From IMG/VR virus record IMGVR_UViG_3300000292_000047: a DNA stretch of 48,335 nt; one strand, written 5' to 3'. Below the pieces are notes generated by a model. The model was not told the DNA's origin and searched no databases. It saw nothing but the letters and a program-made list of their open reading frames with translations. The stretch comes from a virus. Lineage: Duplodnaviria; Heunggongvirae; Uroviricota; Caudoviricetes. The translations under genes were made by a program, and so were the position numbers. Shown here piece after piece: positions 1 to 48,335 of this stretch. Each line of letters opens with the position of its first letter. Position 1 is the first letter of the stretch.

Positions 1-118
1 ATCAGATTTCTCCGGTTTAACCAGGGCGGGTATCGCTCGGTTTCGGGTATAACCTTAGGAAATTTTTTCCCACCTGTAAAGCGCTTTTTATATAAATCTA
101 TAATTATATAATTCTATG
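1..118. repeat. Copy A of ~105-bp conserved promoter/5'-leader repeat (minus-strand sense); first 54 bp identical to window end
   Basis: Near-identical to 7517-7640 and 16999-17108; contains ccggagaaatctgATG (SD + start) in minus sense and AT-rich tatataaatctataattatata block. Confidence 0.8.
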
Positions 119-701: not shown

Positions 702-1008
702 GTTAGTTGTGCCTCCGGCGCTTATCTCCGGCAGTCATAACGCTGACCAGCTCTACAGCAGACACAACGAAAAGGGCACTAACCAGACTGATTAATGCCC
801 TTGCCTGTTGTGTGCCGGATATCGCCCGACAACGCTGTTTTGGTAACACGGCTACAGTTCCGTGCCGCTCCAGCTTTTACCCCTTTGCGGATAACAGGCC
901 CTGCCTGTAACTTAGCCCCACGTTCGCCCGAAATGCGCACCAGGCACGCATAAAGATGAGCACGAAGAAGTAACTCCACCGCGCTTATCTTTATGTGTGA
1001 GGGTGAAT

Positions 1009-1084
1009 TGGTGGCCCCTACCGGATTTGAACCGATGACCGTGCGATTATGAGTCGCCTGCTCTAACCACTAAGCTAAGGGGCC
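1009..1084 (-). tRNA. tRNA with CAT anticodon (Met or Ile2), CCA encoded
   Basis: Minus-strand reading GGCCCCT..CTCATAA..GGTTCAAATCC..AGGGGCCACCA; 7-bp acceptor stem, T-arm ATCGG/CCGGT, anticodon loop CTCATAA. Confidence 0.8.
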
Positions 1085-2873: not shown

Positions 2874-2906
2874 AAAAAAAAAGCCCCGCCGAAAAAGGCA
2901 GGGCTT
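2874..2906 (-). terminator. Candidate intrinsic terminator (hairpin + U-run on minus strand)
   Basis: agccccgcc-gaaaaa-ggcagggct hairpin followed on minus strand by T-run (plus-strand A9). Confidence 0.5.
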
Positions 2907-3050
2907 CATAAAGCAACAAATTACGCGGTAATCGCTTAACGCAGTTTTACTACGTTAAATGAAACACTACACCCAGTTACCACCTAAAACAAGGTTTCCC
3001 CATAAAAAAACCTTCAAAATGTGGTTAATCGATCAATAAAAAAACAATAC

Positions 3051-12650: not shown

Positions 12651-12674
12651 TAAAAAAGGCCCCCGAAGGGGCCT
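12651..12674. terminator. Hairpin terminator, usable on minus strand (bidirectional candidate)
   Basis: aggcccc-cgaa-ggggcct perfect stem; A-run on plus gives U-run on minus. Confidence 0.6.
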
Positions 12675-12679
12675 AATCG

Positions 12680-12802
12680 CTACTTGCTGCTAATGTTTAT
12701 CGTCACATTCAGAGCGTTATCAGTAATCTTCCAACCCTCCCCATGTGGCGTAAACAAAGCCCCAGTAACAACGATAAAAATACACATACAGTATTTTTTC
12801 AT
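12680..12802 (-). CDS. Small hydrophobic peptide (40 aa), candidate type I toxin-like or exported peptide
   Basis: MKKYCMCIFIVVTGALFTPHGEGWKITDNALNVTINISSK; ATG inside track ORF 12680-12862; terminator immediately downstream. Confidence 0.3.
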   Translation of the reverse strand: MKKYCMCIFIVVTGALFTPHGEGWKITDNALNVTINISSK

Positions 12803-13200
12803 TGTATGGCCCTTACAGGCCGTTTCACGGCATCCCCACCGACGAAAACAACGCGAGAGCAAGCACGGCTGCTTGTGCTTGCATGTACGGCAACGGAGAA
12901 TCCTCCCCTAAAGTCGGTGCCCGGGTGCGAATCGGCGGGAAGGTCCACAGGTATTTTACGATTATTTTAAGATTAGTAATAGGAAAGAAATTAAACGAAA
13001 AAACTCGTTTATTTTCACAAAATCAGTAACCTACCCACAATCTGTGAGTTTGCAGGCACAACAAGAATCACAATTTTTTGAAGCATAATAGTGGACTATT
13101 ATTACCTTTTGGGTAAAATTAACTTGCTGCTTGTGCTTGCGTGGTTGTTTATACAACGACGTTATGCTGAAAGGACCGCGAATCCGATCAGCACGAAAGA

Positions 13201-13309: not shown

Positions 13310-13392
13310 CACTTTCCGAGCCGTAGCAAAATCTACGGTCGGGATTGGAACCCCGTAGACACAATGGCGCATACCGCGTTAGCGGTTTTTTT
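13310..13392 (+). ncRNA. Candidate small structured RNA ending at intrinsic terminator, upstream of antirepressor operon
   Basis: TTGACA at 13285-13290; hairpins ccgtag/ctacgg; terminator accgc-gtta-gcggt + T7 (13373-13392); no ORF. Confidence 0.3.
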
Positions 13393-13558
13393 ATGCGTAA
13401 AGCACTGCTACACCCAAATTATGGTGGGGCGTGCGGGGGAGTCGTAAGACTCGCCGGTTCGTCATTGTGTCCGGTAGTTCCAACCCTGCACGTCTCACCA
13501 CCCAATGATTGGAACCTGACGGTGGTGAGTATCCTTAACCTTTAAGGGAATCATCACA

Positions 13559-13750
13559 ATGACAAACCTACCCCATGACTATTACGTCAACCTCGTAAAG
13601 ATCCTTCTCAAGAAAGCCTCATACGCCGATAAATTCCGCCTGGCTGAAATCATCGAGCGCGAAGCTATGCGCATCGCCAGCAACGATAACGCTGTTTCTG
13701 ACGCAAAAATCTCCCTCGTAACCAAAGTTGTTATGGGAGGTGCAAAATGA
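13559..13750 (+). CDS. Small protein translationally coupled to antirepressor
   Basis: 63 aa; stop overlaps ant start (ATGA). Confidence 0.45.
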   Translation: MTNLPHDYYVNLVKILLKKASYADKFRLAEIIEREAMRIASNDNAVSDAKISLVTKVVMGGAK

Positions 13751-14898
13751 AAACGCTTCCGATCGTTAACACCCTACAGCCTATCCTGCATAATCAGATT
13801 CCAGTAATCACAACTGAGCTACTCGCCCGCCTTTATGGAACAGAAGCAATCCGTATACAGCAAAATCACCATGAAAATAAAACTCGGTTCATTGAGGGGA
13901 AGCACTTCTTTAAAGCTGTTGGTGATGAACTCAAAAATTTGCGACTAGTTTTAAACGAGTCACAAAATGAGGTGCAAATTTCCCCCAAAACTCGCTCTCT
14001 CATCCTCTGGACAGAACGCGGGGCTGCACGTCACGCCAAAATGCTTGAAACTAACCAAGCGTGGGATGTGTTCGAACGGCTGGAAGACTGCTATTTCAAC
14101 CAGAACGCGCAAACGGCCGCGACCGTTACCGTCTCGCCAAACAATCCTCGTGAGGTTGTCGATACGCTCAACGCCAAACCGATGTTTTACATTAAGGTGT
14201 GCAACAACGAGCCACTCACAACCTCAGCCGATGTTGCCCAGGCATTCAGCACCACAAACAATTCCATCGTTATGGCCATCGATGCGTTACGCATTCCTCG
14301 TACAGCTGCGGCACGTCATTTCTTTAAAGAGCAACGACCGCTGGAAGGAAGCGACCGCGAAATAACAATCTATCGCATGACAAAAGACGGATTTACCTTG
14401 CTCATGGAAAGTATCGACGGTCCAGGCGTGAAAGATATCAAGCTGGCCTACATTGAAGCCTTTAACGCTATCAGCAGCGTGTTAAAAACACAGTACGAGC
14501 GTGATCTGGCTAAACGACTGTACCAGGAAAAAACGATTATCCGCGCGGCAACAGAGCATAATCGGCTATTAACAGAACCGAAATACAGGAAGGAACTAAT
14601 CAAGGAGTTTGACAAGGCAACAGGGAAAACCAAAGCGGCGCTAAATCTGCCAGCAATGACTCAGGAAAATGTGATATCAGCCTTACTTCTTGATCTGCTC
14701 AGAAACGCCAGAGCACTTATCAGCTTTGACGAAAACCTGAATCCTCAGCTCAAGCTACTACCACCGACAGGCAAAGTAGTCGACCAGGCTGATCACAACA
14801 GCATACTCAGCGTACTGGATGCAAACCTGCCAGCCAGGACACTACAGGATCTGATAAAAACATGTGCTGATAAGCTGGCACAGAAGAGCAGACCATAA
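13747..14898 (+). CDS. Antirepressor-type regulatory protein (ORF6N-like N-terminus + Rha domain)
   Basis: 383 aa; ITIYRMTKDGFTLLMESIDGPGVKDIKLAYIEAFN matches Rha pattern; GGAGG SD. Confidence 0.7.
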   Translation: MKTLPIVNTLQPILHNQIPVITTELLARLYGTEAIRIQQNHHENKTRFIEGKHFFKAVGDELKNLRLVLNESQNEVQISPKTRSLILWTERGAARHAKMLETNQAWDVFERLEDCYFNQNAQTAATVTVSPNNPREVVDTLNAKPMFYIKVCNNEPLTTSADVAQAFSTTNNSIVMAIDALRIPRTAAARHFFKEQRPLEGSDREITIYRMTKDGFTLLMESIDGPGVKDIKLAYIEAFNAISSVLKTQYERDLAKRLYQEKTIIRAATEHNRLLTEPKYRKELIKEFDKATGKTKAALNLPAMTQENVISALLLDLLRNARALISFDENLNPQLKLLPPTGKVVDQADHNSILSVLDANLPARTLQDLIKTCADKLAQKSRP

Positions 14899-43678: not shown

Positions 43679-44398
43679 TTAACGAGAGAACGTCTTAGAA
43701 AGAATGTCATCAATAGCCTTTGTGACTTCATCAGCAAACGCATCCTCACCAGCACGTAGCGCCACGCCATGCCAATCAAGACGCTGCGAATAGTTAGGTT
43801 GCTGGATAAACGTAAGGATCAACGTAGGACGCCGCCCAACGCGCTGCCAGACGCCTGGTTGAAGCGGGTTACTTGTACCAGGTCGAACAACAAAAAACTC
43901 CGTAGGCTTGCCCTGACGGCGATTTTGATGCGCATCTCGCTGAACTCTTAGGCCAGATAAGACCTGCTGTAATTGCCCCCGCGAAATATTCCCGTATTTG
44001 TCCAGCTTTGCGCCGGGACCAGGAGCAAGCTGCCAGCCGTTAGGCAAATATCCACCAGCCCTTAGCGCCCCTTCTGAGCGTTTGTACTGTCGTTGGCCAC
44101 CTTCGATTTGCGGAGTCAACGTTACAGGGGCTGGCGTTCCTCCCCATTCACGAGCATACACAATGGCTGTAGGATCACTCTTCTTTGCGGCCAAAACGTA
44201 AGTAGAGTTCTGAATCCACGGCGTGGGCCTGTCAAATACCCGATTAATTTCATTCTTAATCGCAGCCTGAGAAGCCTTTGCCGTTCTGGTTGCCGCAAGC
44301 GCCATTGCGAATGGCAATTCACGTTCTTCAAGGCGCTGGAGTTGTCGTTGAATATCCTGAGAAGAAAAATCCATCTTTATCTCAATTCTGTCAGCCAC
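43679..44398 (-). CDS. Hypothetical protein
   Basis: 239 aa; GTG start with AGGAGG SD. Confidence 0.45.
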   Translation of the reverse strand: MADRIEIKMDFSSQDIQRQLQRLEERELPFAMALAATRTAKASQAAIKNEINRVFDRPTPWIQNSTYVLAAKKSDPTAIVYAREWGGTPAPVTLTPQIEGGQRQYKRSEGALRAGGYLPNGWQLAPGPGAKLDKYGNISRGQLQQVLSGLRVQRDAHQNRRQGKPTEFFVVRPGTSNPLQPGVWQRVGRRPTLILTFIQQPNYSQRLDWHGVALRAGEDAFADEVTKAIDDILSKTFSR

Positions 44399-44414: not shown

Positions 44415-45788
44415 CTACTTAATCAACGGCCGGAAAGCCGCCAGCACATCATCAGATCGTCCGATTGTTGAACCACCAGGCAACGGCAACTCAAACTCAA
44501 AACGAACAGCTTTCTCCAGACTCTCCCAGCGAAGAGAATCATCGTTAATAACGTGCAAATACCAGCTCTTACAGTTGAATATTGACCGCTTAATCCTGAA
44601 ACCATGTACACGACACAACTGCTTCACTTCATCATCAGAGTGAAACTTCTGGTAAAACCAGTGCCCCTTCCGGTACAACGCGGTAAAACCGTTATGATCA
44701 ATAAAATAAAGCCGGCTTTTGGAACTCGCCGCTTGTGTTTGCTTCAGGACTGTTTCCAGCTCTCCACGGCTACGACCAGAAAAGAATATTGACCCACCAG
44801 CTTTACACAGGCCTTTCAGAACCGTCAGAACAGACCATTCAGCCTCGACACTATCGACCGAGTTCAAAACGCTATCGCAAATCACGTAGTCGTAACGCCC
44901 TCGCGTTTTTAAGTCGTCCACCAGCGTATCAATCATCCGGTTTGTTGCGGTCCTATCCAGAGTGTTTCCAGCGCCCTTACGGCGGAAAAGCTCGAGATCA
45001 TGCAGGTTATATCCCTTTGCCCTGAGCATTCGCGCGTAGTCTCCCTGCCCCGAACCAAAATCAATTCCTCTTGGCGTCTTGGCAATGATCGGGAGGATCA
45101 ACGACTCATACAGGTTTGATTTCAGGCTGCCACCATTACGCAACCGCATAAGCTGCGCATACGTCTGGATGTATGTTGTTTTCTCCAGATGAGAATACTC
45201 AAATACACCATAAGTTTTATTCAGATAACTTTGGTATTTTTCCTTCTCAACATCAGGGATCACAAACACCGTTAGCGGTGTGCGCGTCATTTTCGCTGCT
45301 AATGCATACTGAGCACAGTGAATAACCTCACCAGACTGAGTAGCAACACAACCACCCCACGGACCATACTTGATAACCAGTTCCGCTATGTTCTTTCGAA
45401 CATATGCCATTTTCGCGCGCATATTGCCTGAGATCTGGCTTGCCGATACCTGAACAAAACCATGCTTATCTTCCAGACCGGACACCCTGCAACGCTCATC
45501 TCCGCTATCAAAATCCGTTCCGTTATGCAGTTGGTTAAACCGTACTTCGTCGTATACCGTCGTTTCACAGGGCAACACATACACCGCAGCACGCGTTATT
45601 CCCAACTTACGTAGCGCCTTCGTCCTTTGGTGTCCCGCCACCAGCAAATCGCCGCGCACTATCAATGGCTTCACAAGCCCCAGCTCCCTGACGCTTTCCG
45701 CCAGCCTCGCAAGATCATCCTCACCGATAAAACGCGGGTTATATTCCGCGCCGCGTAGGTGCGTTATGTCGTAATTCAGGTGAAGCAT
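44415..45788 (-). CDS. ParB-like domain fused to class I SAM-dependent methyltransferase
   Basis: N-terminal ParB-like region (LVAGHQRTKAL); C-terminal GIDFGSGQGDYA motif I; ATG 45786-45788 with GGAGG SD, TGATG coupling to upstream gene. Confidence 0.7.
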   Translation of the reverse strand: MLHLNYDITHLRGAEYNPRFIGEDDLARLAESVRELGLVKPLIVRGDLLVAGHQRTKALRKLGITRAAVYVLPCETTVYDEVRFNQLHNGTDFDSGDERCRVSGLEDKHGFVQVSASQISGNMRAKMAYVRKNIAELVIKYGPWGGCVATQSGEVIHCAQYALAAKMTRTPLTVFVIPDVEKEKYQSYLNKTYGVFEYSHLEKTTYIQTYAQLMRLRNGGSLKSNLYESLILPIIAKTPRGIDFGSGQGDYARMLRAKGYNLHDLELFRRKGAGNTLDRTATNRMIDTLVDDLKTRGRYDYVICDSVLNSVDSVEAEWSVLTVLKGLCKAGGSIFFSGRSRGELETVLKQTQAASSKSRLYFIDHNGFTALYRKGHWFYQKFHSDDEVKQLCRVHGFRIKRSIFNCKSWYLHVINDDSLRWESLEKAVRFEFELPLPGGSTIGRSDDVLAAFRPLIK

Positions 45789-46411
45789 CAGCACACCTCC
45801 CCAGCCAGCAATGCGGATACAAATCCGATATAGCTGCCATTATCATCAACATAACGAGACACCGCGCAGTCAAAACGATCCGCTTCCTCATCCGTTGCCG
45901 GGATTTTATGACCTCCAAATGACAGGTACTGAACTTTTACGCCTGATTTGGCCTCATCCTTCTCAAATGGGATATCCATACCCTCTGTGTCATCGTAGAC
46001 CGCCGCACTCAATAAGTTATCCAGTTCGCGCTGAGTAAAACCAATTGAGTCCAGAGCAAAATCATCGGCCGCAAGATCTGCAAGCTCCGCGCTTAACAAC
46101 TCTTCATCCCAACCAGCATTCAGCGGAATACGGTTGTCGGCCAGACGATATGCCTTCTTCTGATTCTCCGTTAGCCCAGCCAGAACAATGCAGGGAACAT
46201 CATCCATCCCCAACTGAGTGGCCGCAGCAATTCGACCATGACCAGCAATTACAACGTTGTTCTCGTCTATCAGGATCGGATTAGTCCATCCGTACTCCTG
46301 TATGCTGGCAACAATCTGATCTACCTGCTCCACGGAGTGTGTGCGAGCGTTCTTTTCATAACCAATCAACACAGAAAGTGGTAAAGAAACCACATTAAGA
46401 TGTTTTGTCAT
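45788..46411 (-). CDS. ParB-like nuclease domain protein
   Basis: 207 aa; VIAGHGRIAAA; shares C-terminal region with 42531-43121. Confidence 0.7.
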   Translation of the reverse strand: MTKHLNVVSLPLSVLIGYEKNARTHSVEQVDQIVASIQEYGWTNPILIDENNVVIAGHGRIAAATQLGMDDVPCIVLAGLTENQKKAYRLADNRIPLNAGWDEELLSAELADLAADDFALDSIGFTQRELDNLLSAAVYDDTEGMDIPFEKDEAKSGVKVQYLSFGGHKIPATDEEADRFDCAVSRYVDDNGSYIGFVSALLAGEVC

Positions 46412-46645: not shown

Positions 46646-47056
46646 TTACGCAGGGATCAAACGGATGCGGCCGTTATTTACCTCAATACGAGAGTATTCC
46701 GGCTTACCATCAACGATTCCAGTAATGACAAGTTCGCCATCAGACGAGCATTCTTCTTTGTCGTCTTCAAGTACCGCGCCTTCTGGCAAATCAACACAGG
46801 CAAAAACAGGGCAGCCTGGATAACGATCATCTTCCATCGCAATCAACATCGATTCACCGAACCACTCTGTGGTAGCACGACCATCAGCCGCCTGATAGTG
46901 AATCAAATACTGGTTTTCGCCATTTGCATACTGAGCACGGGCTTGAACTTCTCCCCACTCTTCACTGATACGCATTGTTACCAGTTGGGATAATTCAAAC
47001 TTAAACGGAACAGACTCTGCACCAATGGCAATCGGTTTATCTTCTTTCTTTTCCAT
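46646..47056 (-). CDS. Hypothetical protein (internally duplicated domain?)
   Basis: 136 aa, ATG verified. Confidence 0.45.
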   Translation of the reverse strand: MEKKEDKPIAIGAESVPFKFELSQLVTMRISEEWGEVQARAQYANGENQYLIHYQAADGRATTEWFGESMLIAMEDDRYPGCPVFACVDLPEGAVLEDDKEECSSDGELVITGIVDGKPEYSRIEVNNGRIRLIPA

Positions 47057-47103
47057 AACATCACCTGAAAATAAAAGCCCCGCGACACGCGAGGCTGTAA
47101 GAG

Positions 47104-47256
47104 TTACTTTCGATAGAAATCAAGGCGCATTTGCTCCCGCTTAAGCCGAAAAGCTCTCTGCGCCACTAAGATGCGCCACAGGACACCAGCAATAACCACC
47201 AGCGAGATACAAAAACACACAGCCACAACCATCAGAAAAATGCCAAGACCATTCAT
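47104..47256 (-). CDS. Unannotated small membrane peptide (50 aa)
   Basis: Hand translation: MNGLGIFLMVVAVCFCISLVVIAGVLWRILVAQRAFRLKREQMRLDFYRK; ATGA overlap with stop of 47253-47465; below track size cut-off. Confidence 0.4.
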   Translation of the reverse strand: MNGLGIFLMVVAVCFCISLVVIAGVLWRILVAQRAFRLKREQMRLDFYRK

Positions 47257-47465
47257 GAAACTATCCATTTTTCAATGAATACCTCCAGTAATATCAAGAG
47301 ATACGCCGTACCCAGCGCGGTTCCTACCGATATAGCTAAGACAAACCTCAAAGATAACGAGGTATCTTTCGCTTTTCTCCAGACGTAAGCGCCAGCCAGA
47401 AATACCAACAAATCTCTTATTGGAAGCGGAAACCAGAACAAATCACTCGGCATAAGCACGATCAT
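47253..47465 (-). CDS. Small two-helix membrane protein
   Basis: 70 aa, hydrophobic. Confidence 0.4.
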   Translation of the reverse strand: MIVLMPSDLFWFPLPIRDLLVFLAGAYVWRKAKDTSLSLRFVLAISVGTALGTAYLLILLEVFIEKWIVS

Positions 47466-47742
47466 CTTCCGCTGCTGATTTACACGCCGCAGTTACTGAT
47501 ATATTGATAACCGGTGCGCTAATCGTGATGGACGACTCTGTCGGTTGACGCGATATAACTGAACGATGGTTATCAATGAAGTCCACAATCTCATTCAGGC
47601 ATTCTTTAGCTGCCTCATCGTGACTTTTTCCGTATGCTTCACGGAGGACTTTCATCCTCATCATTGCTCCGTCACATATAGTCGAAAGCGCGTAAAGCAC
47701 ATCACTAACCGCCATTTCTTTTTTGGTGCTTGTCGAAGGCAT
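47443..47742 (-). CDS. Hypothetical protein
   Basis: 99 aa; AGGAGA SD. Confidence 0.45.
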   Translation of the reverse strand: MPSTSTKKEMAVSDVLYALSTICDGAMMRMKVLREAYGKSHDEAAKECLNEIVDFIDNHRSVISRQPTESSITISAPVINISVTAACKSAAEDDRAYAE

Positions 47743-47816
47743 CCCATGTTCTCCTTTGTCTGGATGTAAAAAAGCCCCGGCAATTGCCGAGGCTCGTTGT
47801 TCGTTATCGTTACGGT

Positions 47817-48014: not shown

Positions 48015-48283
48015 CACTCATCATCTCCTGCCGCACATACAACCTCACAAAAAAAATCAGCAGAATGTTTCTCCTTGAACGAATGACGCTCAAAACCGCA
48101 CTCAATATCAGGCGCAAAAACATCCACCACATACGGTCTTTCAGAATGTTTGTTTTCCCAACGATAAACCGTAGTGACGTTGAAATGTTTTAACGCTTCA
48201 CGGAACTCAACGCTGCCCGTCAGGTTTTTTGAGGTCAGGTATTGCAGGAGGTTTTTTACTACTTCACGGTCTTGTACTTTCAT
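48014..48283 (-). CDS. Hypothetical protein, first gene behind leader copy A/D
   Basis: 89 aa; ATG 48281-48283 directly after ccggagaaatctg. Confidence 0.5.
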   Translation of the reverse strand: MKVQDREVVKNLLQYLTSKNLTGSVEFREALKHFNVTTVYRWENKHSERPYVVDVFAPDIECGFERHSFKEKHSADFFCEVVCAAGDDE

Positions 48284-48335
48284 CAGATTTCTCCGGTTTA
48301 ACCAGGGCGGGTATCGCTCGGTTTCGGGTATAACC
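48282..48335. repeat. Copy D of leader repeat, identical to window positions 1-54
   Basis: 54/54 identity with window start. Confidence 0.9.

What the first reader, a model, noticed from the sequence alone, without database searches (positions are those of the whole stretch)
47104..47465. Unannotated 50-aa membrane peptide coupled to a 70-aa membrane protein in the leader-driven operon
Hand translation of the minus strand from the ATG overlapping the stop of 47253-47465 (ATGA) gives a 50-aa peptide with one TM helix and a basic C-terminus, missed by the 60-aa track cut-off. It is preceded by another small hydrophobic protein and followed by a hairpin at 47070-47092. Small membrane-protein pairs in phage accessory operons are often Kil-like, exclusion or toxin functions.
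Basis: seen in the sequence. Interest (0 to 1): 0.5.

Follow-up and report, generated by a model that had tools for sequence, protein, structure and literature searches.

The report
Coupled small membrane proteins, phage-plasmid late operon
Two tiny overlapping genes for membrane proteins are real and conserved in a family of about 48-kb phage-plasmids of Escherichia and Salmonella, but they match no known protein family, so this is an ordinary orphan accessory module whose function is unknown.

Summary
On the minus strand, a 70-aa ORF (A, 47465-47253) overlaps a 50-aa ORF (B, 47256-47104) at ATGA, and an intrinsic terminator follows (47096-47076 plus a T-tract).

Both are genuine genes:
- A shows purifying selection: 18 of 39 changes are synonymous, p=0.002, and dN/dS is about 0.2 between clades.
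- B keeps one transmembrane helix (17 of 17 replacements hydrophobic) and an RRI(L/F)VxQR...R(K/R)RE basic tail in Salmonella relatives only 28-43% identical.

Refinements:
- The start of B conserved across clades is the ATG at 47268, giving 54 aa.
- RefSeq already annotates B (WP_001013684.1) but not A.
- A and B, with the upstream 99-aa gene X, form an overlapping three-gene cassette bracketed by terminators in every clade. It lies between the lysis cassette and the terminase genes of a RepA/ParA phage-plasmid.
- The cassette is core to the family (69 versus 70 E. coli records). Even so, B is broken by independent frameshifts, including in plaque-forming Yersinia phages, and A is deleted in one Salmonella plasmid. 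Neither is essential.

No Pfam, PHROG, NCBIfam, PADLOC or PDB match was found, and no homologues exist outside this lineage. My best guess, which is inferred, is a late-expressed module acting on the inner membrane. Interest is low to moderate.

The parts
47443..47742 (-). Gene X (99 aa). It is the first gene of the cassette and its stop overlaps the start of A by 23 nt. It has a conserved N-terminal domain of about 65 aa and a variable C-terminal part, giving 99, 151, 201, 251, 260 or 323 aa in relatives.
   Evidence: (phrog_8319 and phrog_14707, unknown function). The AlphaFold2 single-sequence model shows a helical hairpin at residues 12-58, pLDDT about 80 there and 65 overall.
47253..47465 (-). 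ORF A, 66-70 aa depending on the start used (ATG 47465, GTG 47459 or ATG 47453). It is a small membrane protein with an acidic N-terminus, a weakly hydrophobic helix 1 that contains R/K plus D/N, a basic loop RKAKD, and a long hydrophobic helix 2 with small-xxx-small motifs. It is not annotated in RefSeq.
   Evidence: 18 synonymous of 39 changes against 23.7% expected, p=0.0018; remote homologues P0027 and P0028; dN/dS 0.18-0.25.
47104..47268 (-). ORF B, 54 aa from the conserved ATG at 47268, or 50 aa from the ATGA-overlap ATG at 47256. It is a single-pass membrane peptide, predicted N-out/C-in, with a basic cytoplasmic tail. Its last 8 aa or so are mosaic, with three alternative tails.
   Evidence: (all TM replacements hydrophobic, p about 1e-4).
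47253..47268 (-). A/B overlap. The ATG-GAT of B lies inside the conserved Trp-Ile codons of A, and the second ATG overlaps the stop of A (ATGA). This arrangement fits translational coupling.
   Evidence: (junction sequences of three clades). The overlap is 16 nt in the window, 13 nt in L025 and 28 nt in L026.
47766..47795 (-). Intrinsic terminator immediately upstream of gene X. The end of its T-tract lies 24 nt from the ATG of X.
   Evidence: 10 pairs, 7 G-C, T6. The same hairpin is conserved in Salmonella relatives.
47067..47096 (-).
   Evidence: Terminators with a different stem sequence sit at the same place in L025/L046, L026 and L047.
2880..2907 (-). Context only: a strong terminator in the leader just upstream of the first holin gene. 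It suggests that late transcription depends on antitermination and would therefore read through the two terminators around the cassette.
   Evidence: No antiterminator homologue was identified, so this step is inferred.

Best explanation
A and B are two real, lineage-restricted small inner-membrane proteins.

Shown:
- With gene X they form a three-gene cassette (X-A-B) with overlapping start and stop codons, bracketed by intrinsic terminators.
- The cassette lies between the lysis cassette and the packaging genes, in the late region of a roughly 48-kb P2-tailed phage-plasmid of Escherichia and Salmonella.
- Both frames are under coding constraint across three clades, and the order and overlap are conserved.
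- Neither gene is essential.

Inferred:
- The cassette has no promoter of its own. It is transcribed only when late, antiterminated transcription reads through the upstream terminator.
- B is translated by coupling to A.
- A inserts as a helical hairpin (N-out/C-out, basic loop inside). B inserts N-out/C-in with its basic tail in the cytoplasm.
- Together they would give the three-helix, charged-C-tail topology of a class I holin. Most likely they associate in the cytoplasmic membrane late in lytic growth and perturb or tune it, as a holin-like lysis-timing accessory, rather than serving morphogenesis.

The biochemical function is not established.
For: - Coding constraint: A has excess synonymous changes in its own frame only and dN/dS of 0.18-0.25 between clades.
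- B: all 17 genuine TM replacements are hydrophobic, against 58% expected. The motifs FL..AV and RI.V.QR...RE are invariant at 28-43% identity. Both frames are intact in nearly all of about 34 distinct Escherichia-clade loci.
- Conserved layout: the order X-A-B, the overlaps and both terminators are conserved in Salmonella clades.
- Core to the family: found in 69 E. coli records, against 70 for the neighbouring ParB/Srx gene.
- No sigma-70-like promoter lies between the terminator and X. A leader terminator sits upstream of the holin gene.
- Topology and charge.
- Dispensability: B carries a 1-nt deletion in plaque-forming Yersinia phages vB_YpM_41 and 44 and a 13-nt duplication in at least 24 contigs. 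A is deleted in CP053324.1.
- Precedent: a two-TM plus one-TM holin-like pair that jointly times lysis, each individually non-essential, is known from mycobacteriophage Ms6 Gp4/Gp5 (PMC6116114).
Against: - The phage already has a complete canonical lysis cassette about 1.8 kb upstream: two holins, a GH108 endolysin and an Rz-like spanin.
- A and B match no holin model and are not paralogues of the phage's own holins.
- They are not adjacent to the endolysin.
- No antiterminator was identified, so the timing of expression is inferred only.
- A and B can each occur without an intact partner, which argues against an obligate heterocomplex.
- The tail of B is not significantly amphipathic.
- There is no experimental evidence of any kind.
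Confidence: 0.4

Rival explanations
1. Prophage-state (plasmid-state) membrane factors. A and/or B would be made at a low level in the lysogen. They would bind a host inner-membrane protein, in the way small regulators such as AcrZ do, or would block DNA entry by superinfecting phages, as T4 Imm or HK97 gp15 do.
For: - The architecture is small single-pass plus hairpin membrane proteins.
- The cassette is insulated by terminators, like lambdoid morons.
- The A-B segment is more polymorphic than the neighbouring ParB/Srx gene: 47 of 69 records fall in the 95-99% band against 1 of 70.
- B changes fast within the Escherichia clade, with only 4 synonymous of 18 changes. This would fit an arms race.
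Against: - No promoter was detected for the cassette, and a strong terminator lies 24 nt upstream of X.
- There is no PADLOC or PHROG match to exclusion proteins.
- The cassette is core rather than variably present.
- The replacements in B are confined to hydrophobic swaps, which fits relaxed TM constraint as well as it fits diversifying selection.
Confidence: 0.2
2. A toxin module of the type I or Hok kind. B would be a small membrane-depolarising toxin whose translation is gated by the overlapping upstream frame A (as mok gates hok). It would contribute to plasmid addiction or abortive infection.
For: - B resembles type I toxins in size and shape: about 50 aa, an N-terminal TM helix and a charged tail.
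- The upstream frame overlaps it.
- B has been inactivated repeatedly and independently while A stays intact, which suggests B is costly.
Against: - No antisense RNA or Rfam family lies at the locus.
- The only plus-strand promoter-like site (46965-46994) lies in a downstream gene that is replaced in many relatives, and there are fewer promoter-like sites than in shuffled sequence.
- The cassette has no promoter of its own.
- A is itself under amino-acid constraint, so it is not a mere leader.
- In L047, B follows X directly and has its own GGAG.
- There is no Pfam or NCBIfam toxin match.
- The plasmid already carries RelE/ParE and a ryfA-family locus.
Confidence: 0.07
3. One or both ORFs are not functional genes. 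They would be chance frames or decaying remnants, kept only because the family is young.
For: - Within the Escherichia clade the DNA is 91-100% identical, so open frames there prove little.
- B shows no excess of synonymous changes in that clade.
- Several frameshifted alleles of B circulate.
- PGAP does not call A.
Against: - Both frames stay open, in the same order and overlap, in Salmonella clades where synonymous sites of A are saturated.
- The conserved motifs and the hydrophobicity pattern persist at 28-43% identity.
- A has a frame-specific excess of synonymous changes.
- The indel in A in L017 is in frame, 30 nt.
- B is the most hydrophobic of 172 comparable ORFs in the window.
Confidence: 0.03

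Closest known systems
Mycobacteriophage Ms6 Gp4/Gp5 holin-like pair (PMC6116114)
   Same: A small two-TM protein is immediately followed by a one-TM protein with a charged tail. In Ms6 the two interact and together set lysis timing, and each is individually dispensable for viability. Here A and B have the same order and topology classes, and each is likewise dispensable.
   Different: There is no sequence similarity. Ms6 gp4 and gp5 sit inside the lysis cassette next to the lysins, whereas A and B lie about 1.8 kb downstream of a complete holin-holin-endolysin-spanin cassette. An A-B interaction and any lysis phenotype are untested.
Class I holins (lambda S105 type; my own knowledge)
   Same: A (N-out hairpin) and B (N-out/C-in with a basic cytoplasmic tail) together reproduce the three-TM, N-out/C-in, charged-C-tail topology within about 120 aa. 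Helix 2 of A has small-xxx-small motifs. The Escherichia clade has two in-frame ATGs four codons apart at the start of B.
   Different: The topology is split over two polypeptides. There is no match to any holin family in Pfam or PHROGs. The extra N-terminal residues are acidic rather than basic, and the second ATG is absent in the Salmonella clades. No programmed frameshift is plausible, because the A-run at the junction is not conserved (GAAAAATGG against GAAGAATGG, CAATGG and GAATGG).
hok/mok-type type I toxin loci (my own knowledge)
   Same: Both have a hydrophobic peptide of about 50 aa whose start is overlapped by an upstream reading frame.
   Different: No antisense RNA, no promoter of its own and no family match were found. 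The upstream frame A is itself a conserved membrane protein. The locus is embedded in a phage late region.
Lambdoid morons (genes inserted in late operons with their own promoter and terminator; my own knowledge)
   Same: The cassette is a small accessory-looking gene block ending in an intrinsic terminator inside a late region, and it has mosaic flanks.
   Different: No promoter was found. The block is present in essentially all family members rather than in some only.

Membership tests
Holins (any Pfam or PHROG holin family) | Sequence match to a described holin family | tested here: not met
   A and B gave no hits in Pfam, PHROGs or NCBIfam. hhalign against the phage's own two holins gave probability below 1%.
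Holins (any Pfam or PHROG holin family) | At least one TM domain and a highly charged cytoplasmic C-terminus | tested here: met
   B has one TM segment and a tail of net charge +5. A has two hydrophobic segments. The feature is met only by B alone, or by A and B taken together.
Holins (any Pfam or PHROG holin family) | Location in the lysis cassette next to the endolysin | tested here: not met
   Holin, holin, GH108 endolysin and Rz-like spanin lie at about 2860-1378 (-). A and B are separated from them by a tRNA, an MT-A70 methyltransferase, two small genes and two terminators.
Holins (any Pfam or PHROG holin family) | Lethal, timed hole formation; complementation of a lambda S-defective phage | not testable with these tools
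   This needs an experiment.
Type I toxin-antitoxin (hok/sok-like) | Small hydrophobic toxin peptide | tested here: met
   B is 50-54 aa with max KD19 of 3.11.
Type I toxin-antitoxin (hok/sok-like) | Cis-encoded antisense RNA antitoxin with its own promoter | tested here: not met
   There is no Rfam family at the locus. The only plus-strand promoter-like site lies in a non-conserved downstream gene and does not exceed chance. A simple consensus scan cannot exclude a weak promoter.
Type I toxin-antitoxin (hok/sok-like) | Match to a known toxin family (Hok/Gef, Ldr, TisB, Ibs and others) | tested here: not met
   The only matches fall below the curated threshold (CcmD, E=0.0037, 17.3 bits against a cut-off of 25.95).
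Moron (lambdoid late-operon insertion) | Own promoter upstream and terminator downstream | tested here: inconclusive
   The terminator is present. No promoter was found between 47795 and 47742 or across the junction.
Moron (lambdoid late-operon insertion) | Present in some relatives and absent in others | tested here: not met
   The A-B segment is in 69 E. coli records, against 70 for the adjacent ParB/Srx gene. It is also present in the Salmonella clades.
Known superinfection-exclusion or defence proteins | Match to PADLOC or PHROG exclusion or defence models | tested here: not met
   Searches gave zero families at E up to 10 in PADLOC.
Kil-type cell-division inhibitors | Sequence match to a Kil, DicB or related family | tested here: not met
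   No Pfam, PHROG or NCBIfam hit. Inhibition of division cannot be tested here.
Spanins / lipoproteins | Lipobox or a periplasmic domain long enough to span the envelope | tested here: not met
   By reading the sequence, there is no L-[AS]-[GA]-C lipobox. The cysteines of B are replaced by W, G or L in relatives. The predicted periplasmic parts are under 10 aa. An Rz-like spanin exists elsewhere in the genome.

The most novel reading that the evidence does not exclude
A and B are a two-component, 'split class I holin-like' membrane-permeabilising system, specific to this phage-plasmid lineage and expressed from the late transcript. It would act as a second lysis clock independent of the canonical one, or as a suicide or exclusion device. 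The cost of the B subunit would explain its recurrent inactivation.
Probability: 0.12. Interest if true: 0.5.

Novelty: new member of a known kind. Interest (0 to 1): 0.28.

Why it matters
The practical value is mostly for annotation:
- A conserved 66-70-aa membrane protein gene (A) is missing from RefSeq annotation of about 70 complete E. coli phage-plasmids.
- The start codon of its partner B is probably called 4 codons too short.

Biologically, X-A-B is a compact, terminator-insulated cassette that is core to a clinically widespread family of E. coli and Salmonella phage-plasmids, present for example in ATCC 25922. Small phage membrane proteins are a poorly charted class, and they often turn out to control lysis timing, exclusion or host physiology.

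The natural knock-outs make a phenotype easy to look for. These are the B frameshifts in plaque-forming Yersinia phages and an A deletion in a Salmonella plasmid. Nothing found here suggests a new kind of mechanism.

Tried and rejected
- **Family searches.** A, B and their neighbours were searched against Pfam, PHROGs, NCBIfam and PADLOC. A and B gave nothing.
- **Solved structures.** PDB sequence searches with profiles of A and B and with the long form of X gave only chance-level hits.
- **Large protein searches.** Word-indexed searches of 5.8 billion proteins, with single sequences and with a B profile, returned only the same lineage.
- **Exhaustive HMMER search.** An A profile run against 1.84 billion representatives gave two useful remote homologues, P0027 and P0028, both from the same kind of element.
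- **GTDB species representatives.** The A profile found nothing. A ParB/Srx profile found only unrelated Myxococcota and Terriglobales MAGs.
- **Structure prediction.** AlphaFold2 on X (single sequence, pLDDT 65) and on A (4 sequences, pLDDT 59) gave helices only. The models were too weak for a fold search, so none was run.
- **Amphipathic tail in B.** Rejected, because the hydrophobic moment is no higher than in shuffles.
- **Programmed -1 frameshift fusing A to B at GAAAAAT.** Rejected, because the A-run is not conserved.
- **Paralogy with the phage's own holins.** Rejected.
- **Ogr-type late promoter (TGT-N12-ACA) upstream of X.** None was seen on reading.
- **Literature.** Searches for the RefSeq accession, for Ribo-seq in ATCC 25922 and for this phage-plasmid family found nothing on these genes. 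I could not establish that the vB_YpM_HQ103 paper concerns the same family.

Full report
**What the window is.** The finding region is 100% identical to a 48,488-bp plasmid of E. coli ATCC 25922. It matches 69 complete E. coli genome records, almost all on plasmids of 46-51 kb. It also matches 58 PLSDB plasmids, all non-mobilizable, from Escherichia species plus one Klebsiella aerogenes. Three plaque-forming Yersinia pestis myophages, vB_YpM_39, 41 and 44, match as well.

The RefSeq annotation of the ATCC 25922 plasmid shows a phage-plasmid. It has RepA, ParA, RelE/ParE and an XRE repressor, together with a lysis cassette, terminase, portal, capsid, and a P2-like sheath, tube and baseplate. 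The window carries a 54-bp exact terminal overlap, so it is an untrimmed circular contig of about 48,281 bp.

**The observation.** On the minus strand, ORF A (47465-47253, 70 aa) ends in a TGA that overlaps the ATG at 47256 of a 50-aa ORF B ending at 47104. An in-frame ATG at 47268 gives 54 aa. Directly after B lies a textbook intrinsic terminator, 47096-47076 plus TTTATTTT. A second one lies at 47795-47772, 24 nt upstream of the 99-aa gene X (47742-47443), whose stop overlaps the start of A.

By hydropathy, B has one TM segment and a basic tail. A has two hydrophobic segments around a basic loop. Among 172 ORFs of 45-80 aa in all six frames, B is the most hydrophobic and A ranks 8th.

**Are they genes?** I compared 22 Escherichia-clade loci first, and about 34 distinct loci after adding metagenome and IMG/VR contigs.
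- A is open in every complete locus; one, L017, has an in-frame 30-nt deletion. B is open in all but one.
- In A, 18 of 39 distinct substitutions are synonymous against 23.7% expected (p=0.0018). The excess is specific to A's own frame.
- In B, only 4 of 18 are synonymous, so there is no signal of that kind. However, second codon positions are depleted. All 17 genuine replacements in the TM segment keep a hydrophobic or small residue, against 58% expected (p about 1e-4). The stretch WRILVAQRAFRxKREQ barely varies.

The decisive evidence comes from distant relatives. An exhaustive profile search with A found P0027 and P0028. Their contigs, together with IMG/VR contig L046 and the Salmonella plasmids NZ_LN890526.1 and CP053324.1, carry the same layout. 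The order is X homologue, A homologue, an overlapping B homologue, a terminator, a homologue of the downstream 136-aa gene, ParB/Srx, ParB-methyltransferase and terminase.
- A is 40-43% identical to these relatives and B is 28-43% identical.
- Synonymous sites of A are saturated, while dN/dS among clades is 0.18-0.25 for A and 0.3-0.8 for B.
- B keeps FL..AV in the helix and RRI(L/F)VxQR...R(K/R)RE...(D/E)(W/F)F in the tail.
- A keeps LL.(F/I)LA.AYVW.K and (T/S)LS..F, plus small-xxx-small positions in helix 2.

Both are real coding genes.

**Refinements.**
- **Start of B.** In all three clades an ATG-GAT lies inside the conserved Trp-Ile codons of A. In CP053324.1, where A is deleted, the same ATG-GAT follows the stop of X with GGAG 6 nt upstream. 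In E. fergusonii L011, the stop of A has moved so that the ATGA overlap falls on this first ATG. The second ATG (47256) exists only in the Escherichia clade. The conserved start is therefore 47268 (54 aa), though the 50-aa form may also be made.
- **Start of A.** This is ambiguous. GTG 47459 has GGAAG 6 nt upstream and is the start shared with the variants that follow a 151-aa X.
- **Public annotation.** RefSeq calls B (WP_001013684.1) but leaves A as a 187-nt gap.
- **Mosaic ends.** The recombination breakpoints lie a few codons inside A and about 8 codons before the end of B. As a result B has three alternative tails, each travelling with a different downstream gene.

**Dispensability.** The cassette is core: 69 E. 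coli records against 70 for the adjacent ParB/Srx gene. Even so, B is broken independently at least four times, while A stays intact in the two alleles I checked at DNA level:
- a 1-nt deletion in the viable Yersinia phages vB_YpM_41 and 44;
- a 13-nt tandem duplication seen in at least 24 contigs;
- two further frameshift alleles, P0015 and P0016.

Conversely, one Salmonella salamae plasmid has lost A and kept B. Neither protein is essential, and they are not strictly interdependent.

**Expression (inferred).** No sigma-70-like promoter lies between the upstream terminator and X, nor anywhere in the cassette. The only candidate nearby (129-103, CTGGCA-15-TATAAT) sits upstream of the preceding two-gene block and is separated from X by the terminator. 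A strong terminator also sits in the leader just upstream of the first holin gene, with another before the MT-A70 gene.

A chain of terminators inside a co-oriented late region is what antitermination-dependent late transcription looks like. I could not identify the antiterminator, so this step is an inference. On this reading X-A-B is made late in lytic growth.

**Function.** Nothing known matches:
- Pfam, PHROGs, NCBIfam, PADLOC and the PDB gave no match.
- Rfam gave nothing at the locus.
- There are no homologues outside this lineage among 5.8 billion and 1.84 billion proteins.

The canonical lysis set is complete elsewhere in the genome, and A and B are not paralogues of those holins.

By the positive-inside rule (my own knowledge), A is N-out/C-out and B is N-out/C-in with a cytoplasmic basic tail. 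Together they mimic the topology of a class I holin. The closest functional precedent I could document is the Ms6 Gp4 (two-TM) and Gp5 (one-TM) pair, which interact to time lysis and are individually non-essential (PMC6116114).

I therefore rank the readings as follows:
- a late, inner-membrane-acting, holin-like accessory, about 0.4;
- prophage-expressed exclusion or modulation of a host membrane protein, about 0.2;
- a Hok-like toxin, about 0.07;
- non-functional ORFs, about 0.03.

The remaining probability belongs to functions I cannot name. The recurrent loss of B hints that it is costly, which fits any membrane-perturbing role.

**Verdict.** This is an orphan family within a familiar class, small phage membrane proteins, with modest interest.

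Noticed in passing
window 12652-12948 (-): A full-length match to Rfam ryfA RNA (RF00126, 141.8 bits, E=1.8e-36) on the phage-plasmid. To my knowledge, ryfA-family transcripts encode a small type I toxin, so this may be a second addiction-type locus besides RelE/ParE.
   Followed up: no
window 13320-13505 (+): isrK (RF01394) and C4 antisense RNA (RF01695) lie side by side, just upstream of a 383-aa ORF (13747-14898). PGAP calls that ORF an ORF6N-domain protein in the ATCC 25922 plasmid. The arrangement looks like a P1/P7 immI-type c4-ant immunity module.
   Followed up: no
window 2880-2907 (-), 772-802 (-), 47772-47795 (-), 47076-47096 (-): A series of strong intrinsic terminators lies inside the co-oriented late region. 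The first sits in the leader just upstream of the holin gene. This implies antitermination-dependent late transcription, yet no Q-like or other antiterminator was recognisable among the upstream ORFs.
   Followed up: partly
window 1-54 and 48282-48335: The two ends of the window are an exact 54-bp repeat. It is an untrimmed circular assembly, with a true length of about 48,281 bp. The start of the 89-aa gene (48283) sits at this junction.
   Followed up: yes
L047 (CP053324.1, Salmonella enterica subsp. salamae plasmid) 1749-2672: This is a natural deletion of gene A. The stop of X is followed directly by the ATG of B, which has its own GGAG. The record has no annotation at all.
   Followed up: yes
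L046 1931-2175 and L026 559-805: The Salmonella-clade relatives carry an extra non-coding stretch of about 245 nt between two terminators upstream of X. The window lacks it. No Rfam match and no promoter-like site were found there.
   Followed up: partly
window 1012-1084 (-): A phage-plasmid tRNA with anticodon CAU lies between the lysis cassette and the MT-A70 gene. RefSeq calls it tRNA-Ile, while the GenBank Yersinia phage records call it tRNA-Met.
   Followed up: no
window 44415-46411 (-) and 43679-44398 (-): A ParB/Srx-domain protein is followed by a ParB-N plus methyltransferase fusion, just upstream of the packaging genes. In the ATCC 25922 plasmid a third ParB/Srx protein lies next to the terminase. 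The ParB/Srx gene is at least 99% identical in 69 of 70 E. coli records, whereas the adjacent small-gene region is mosaic.
   Followed up: no
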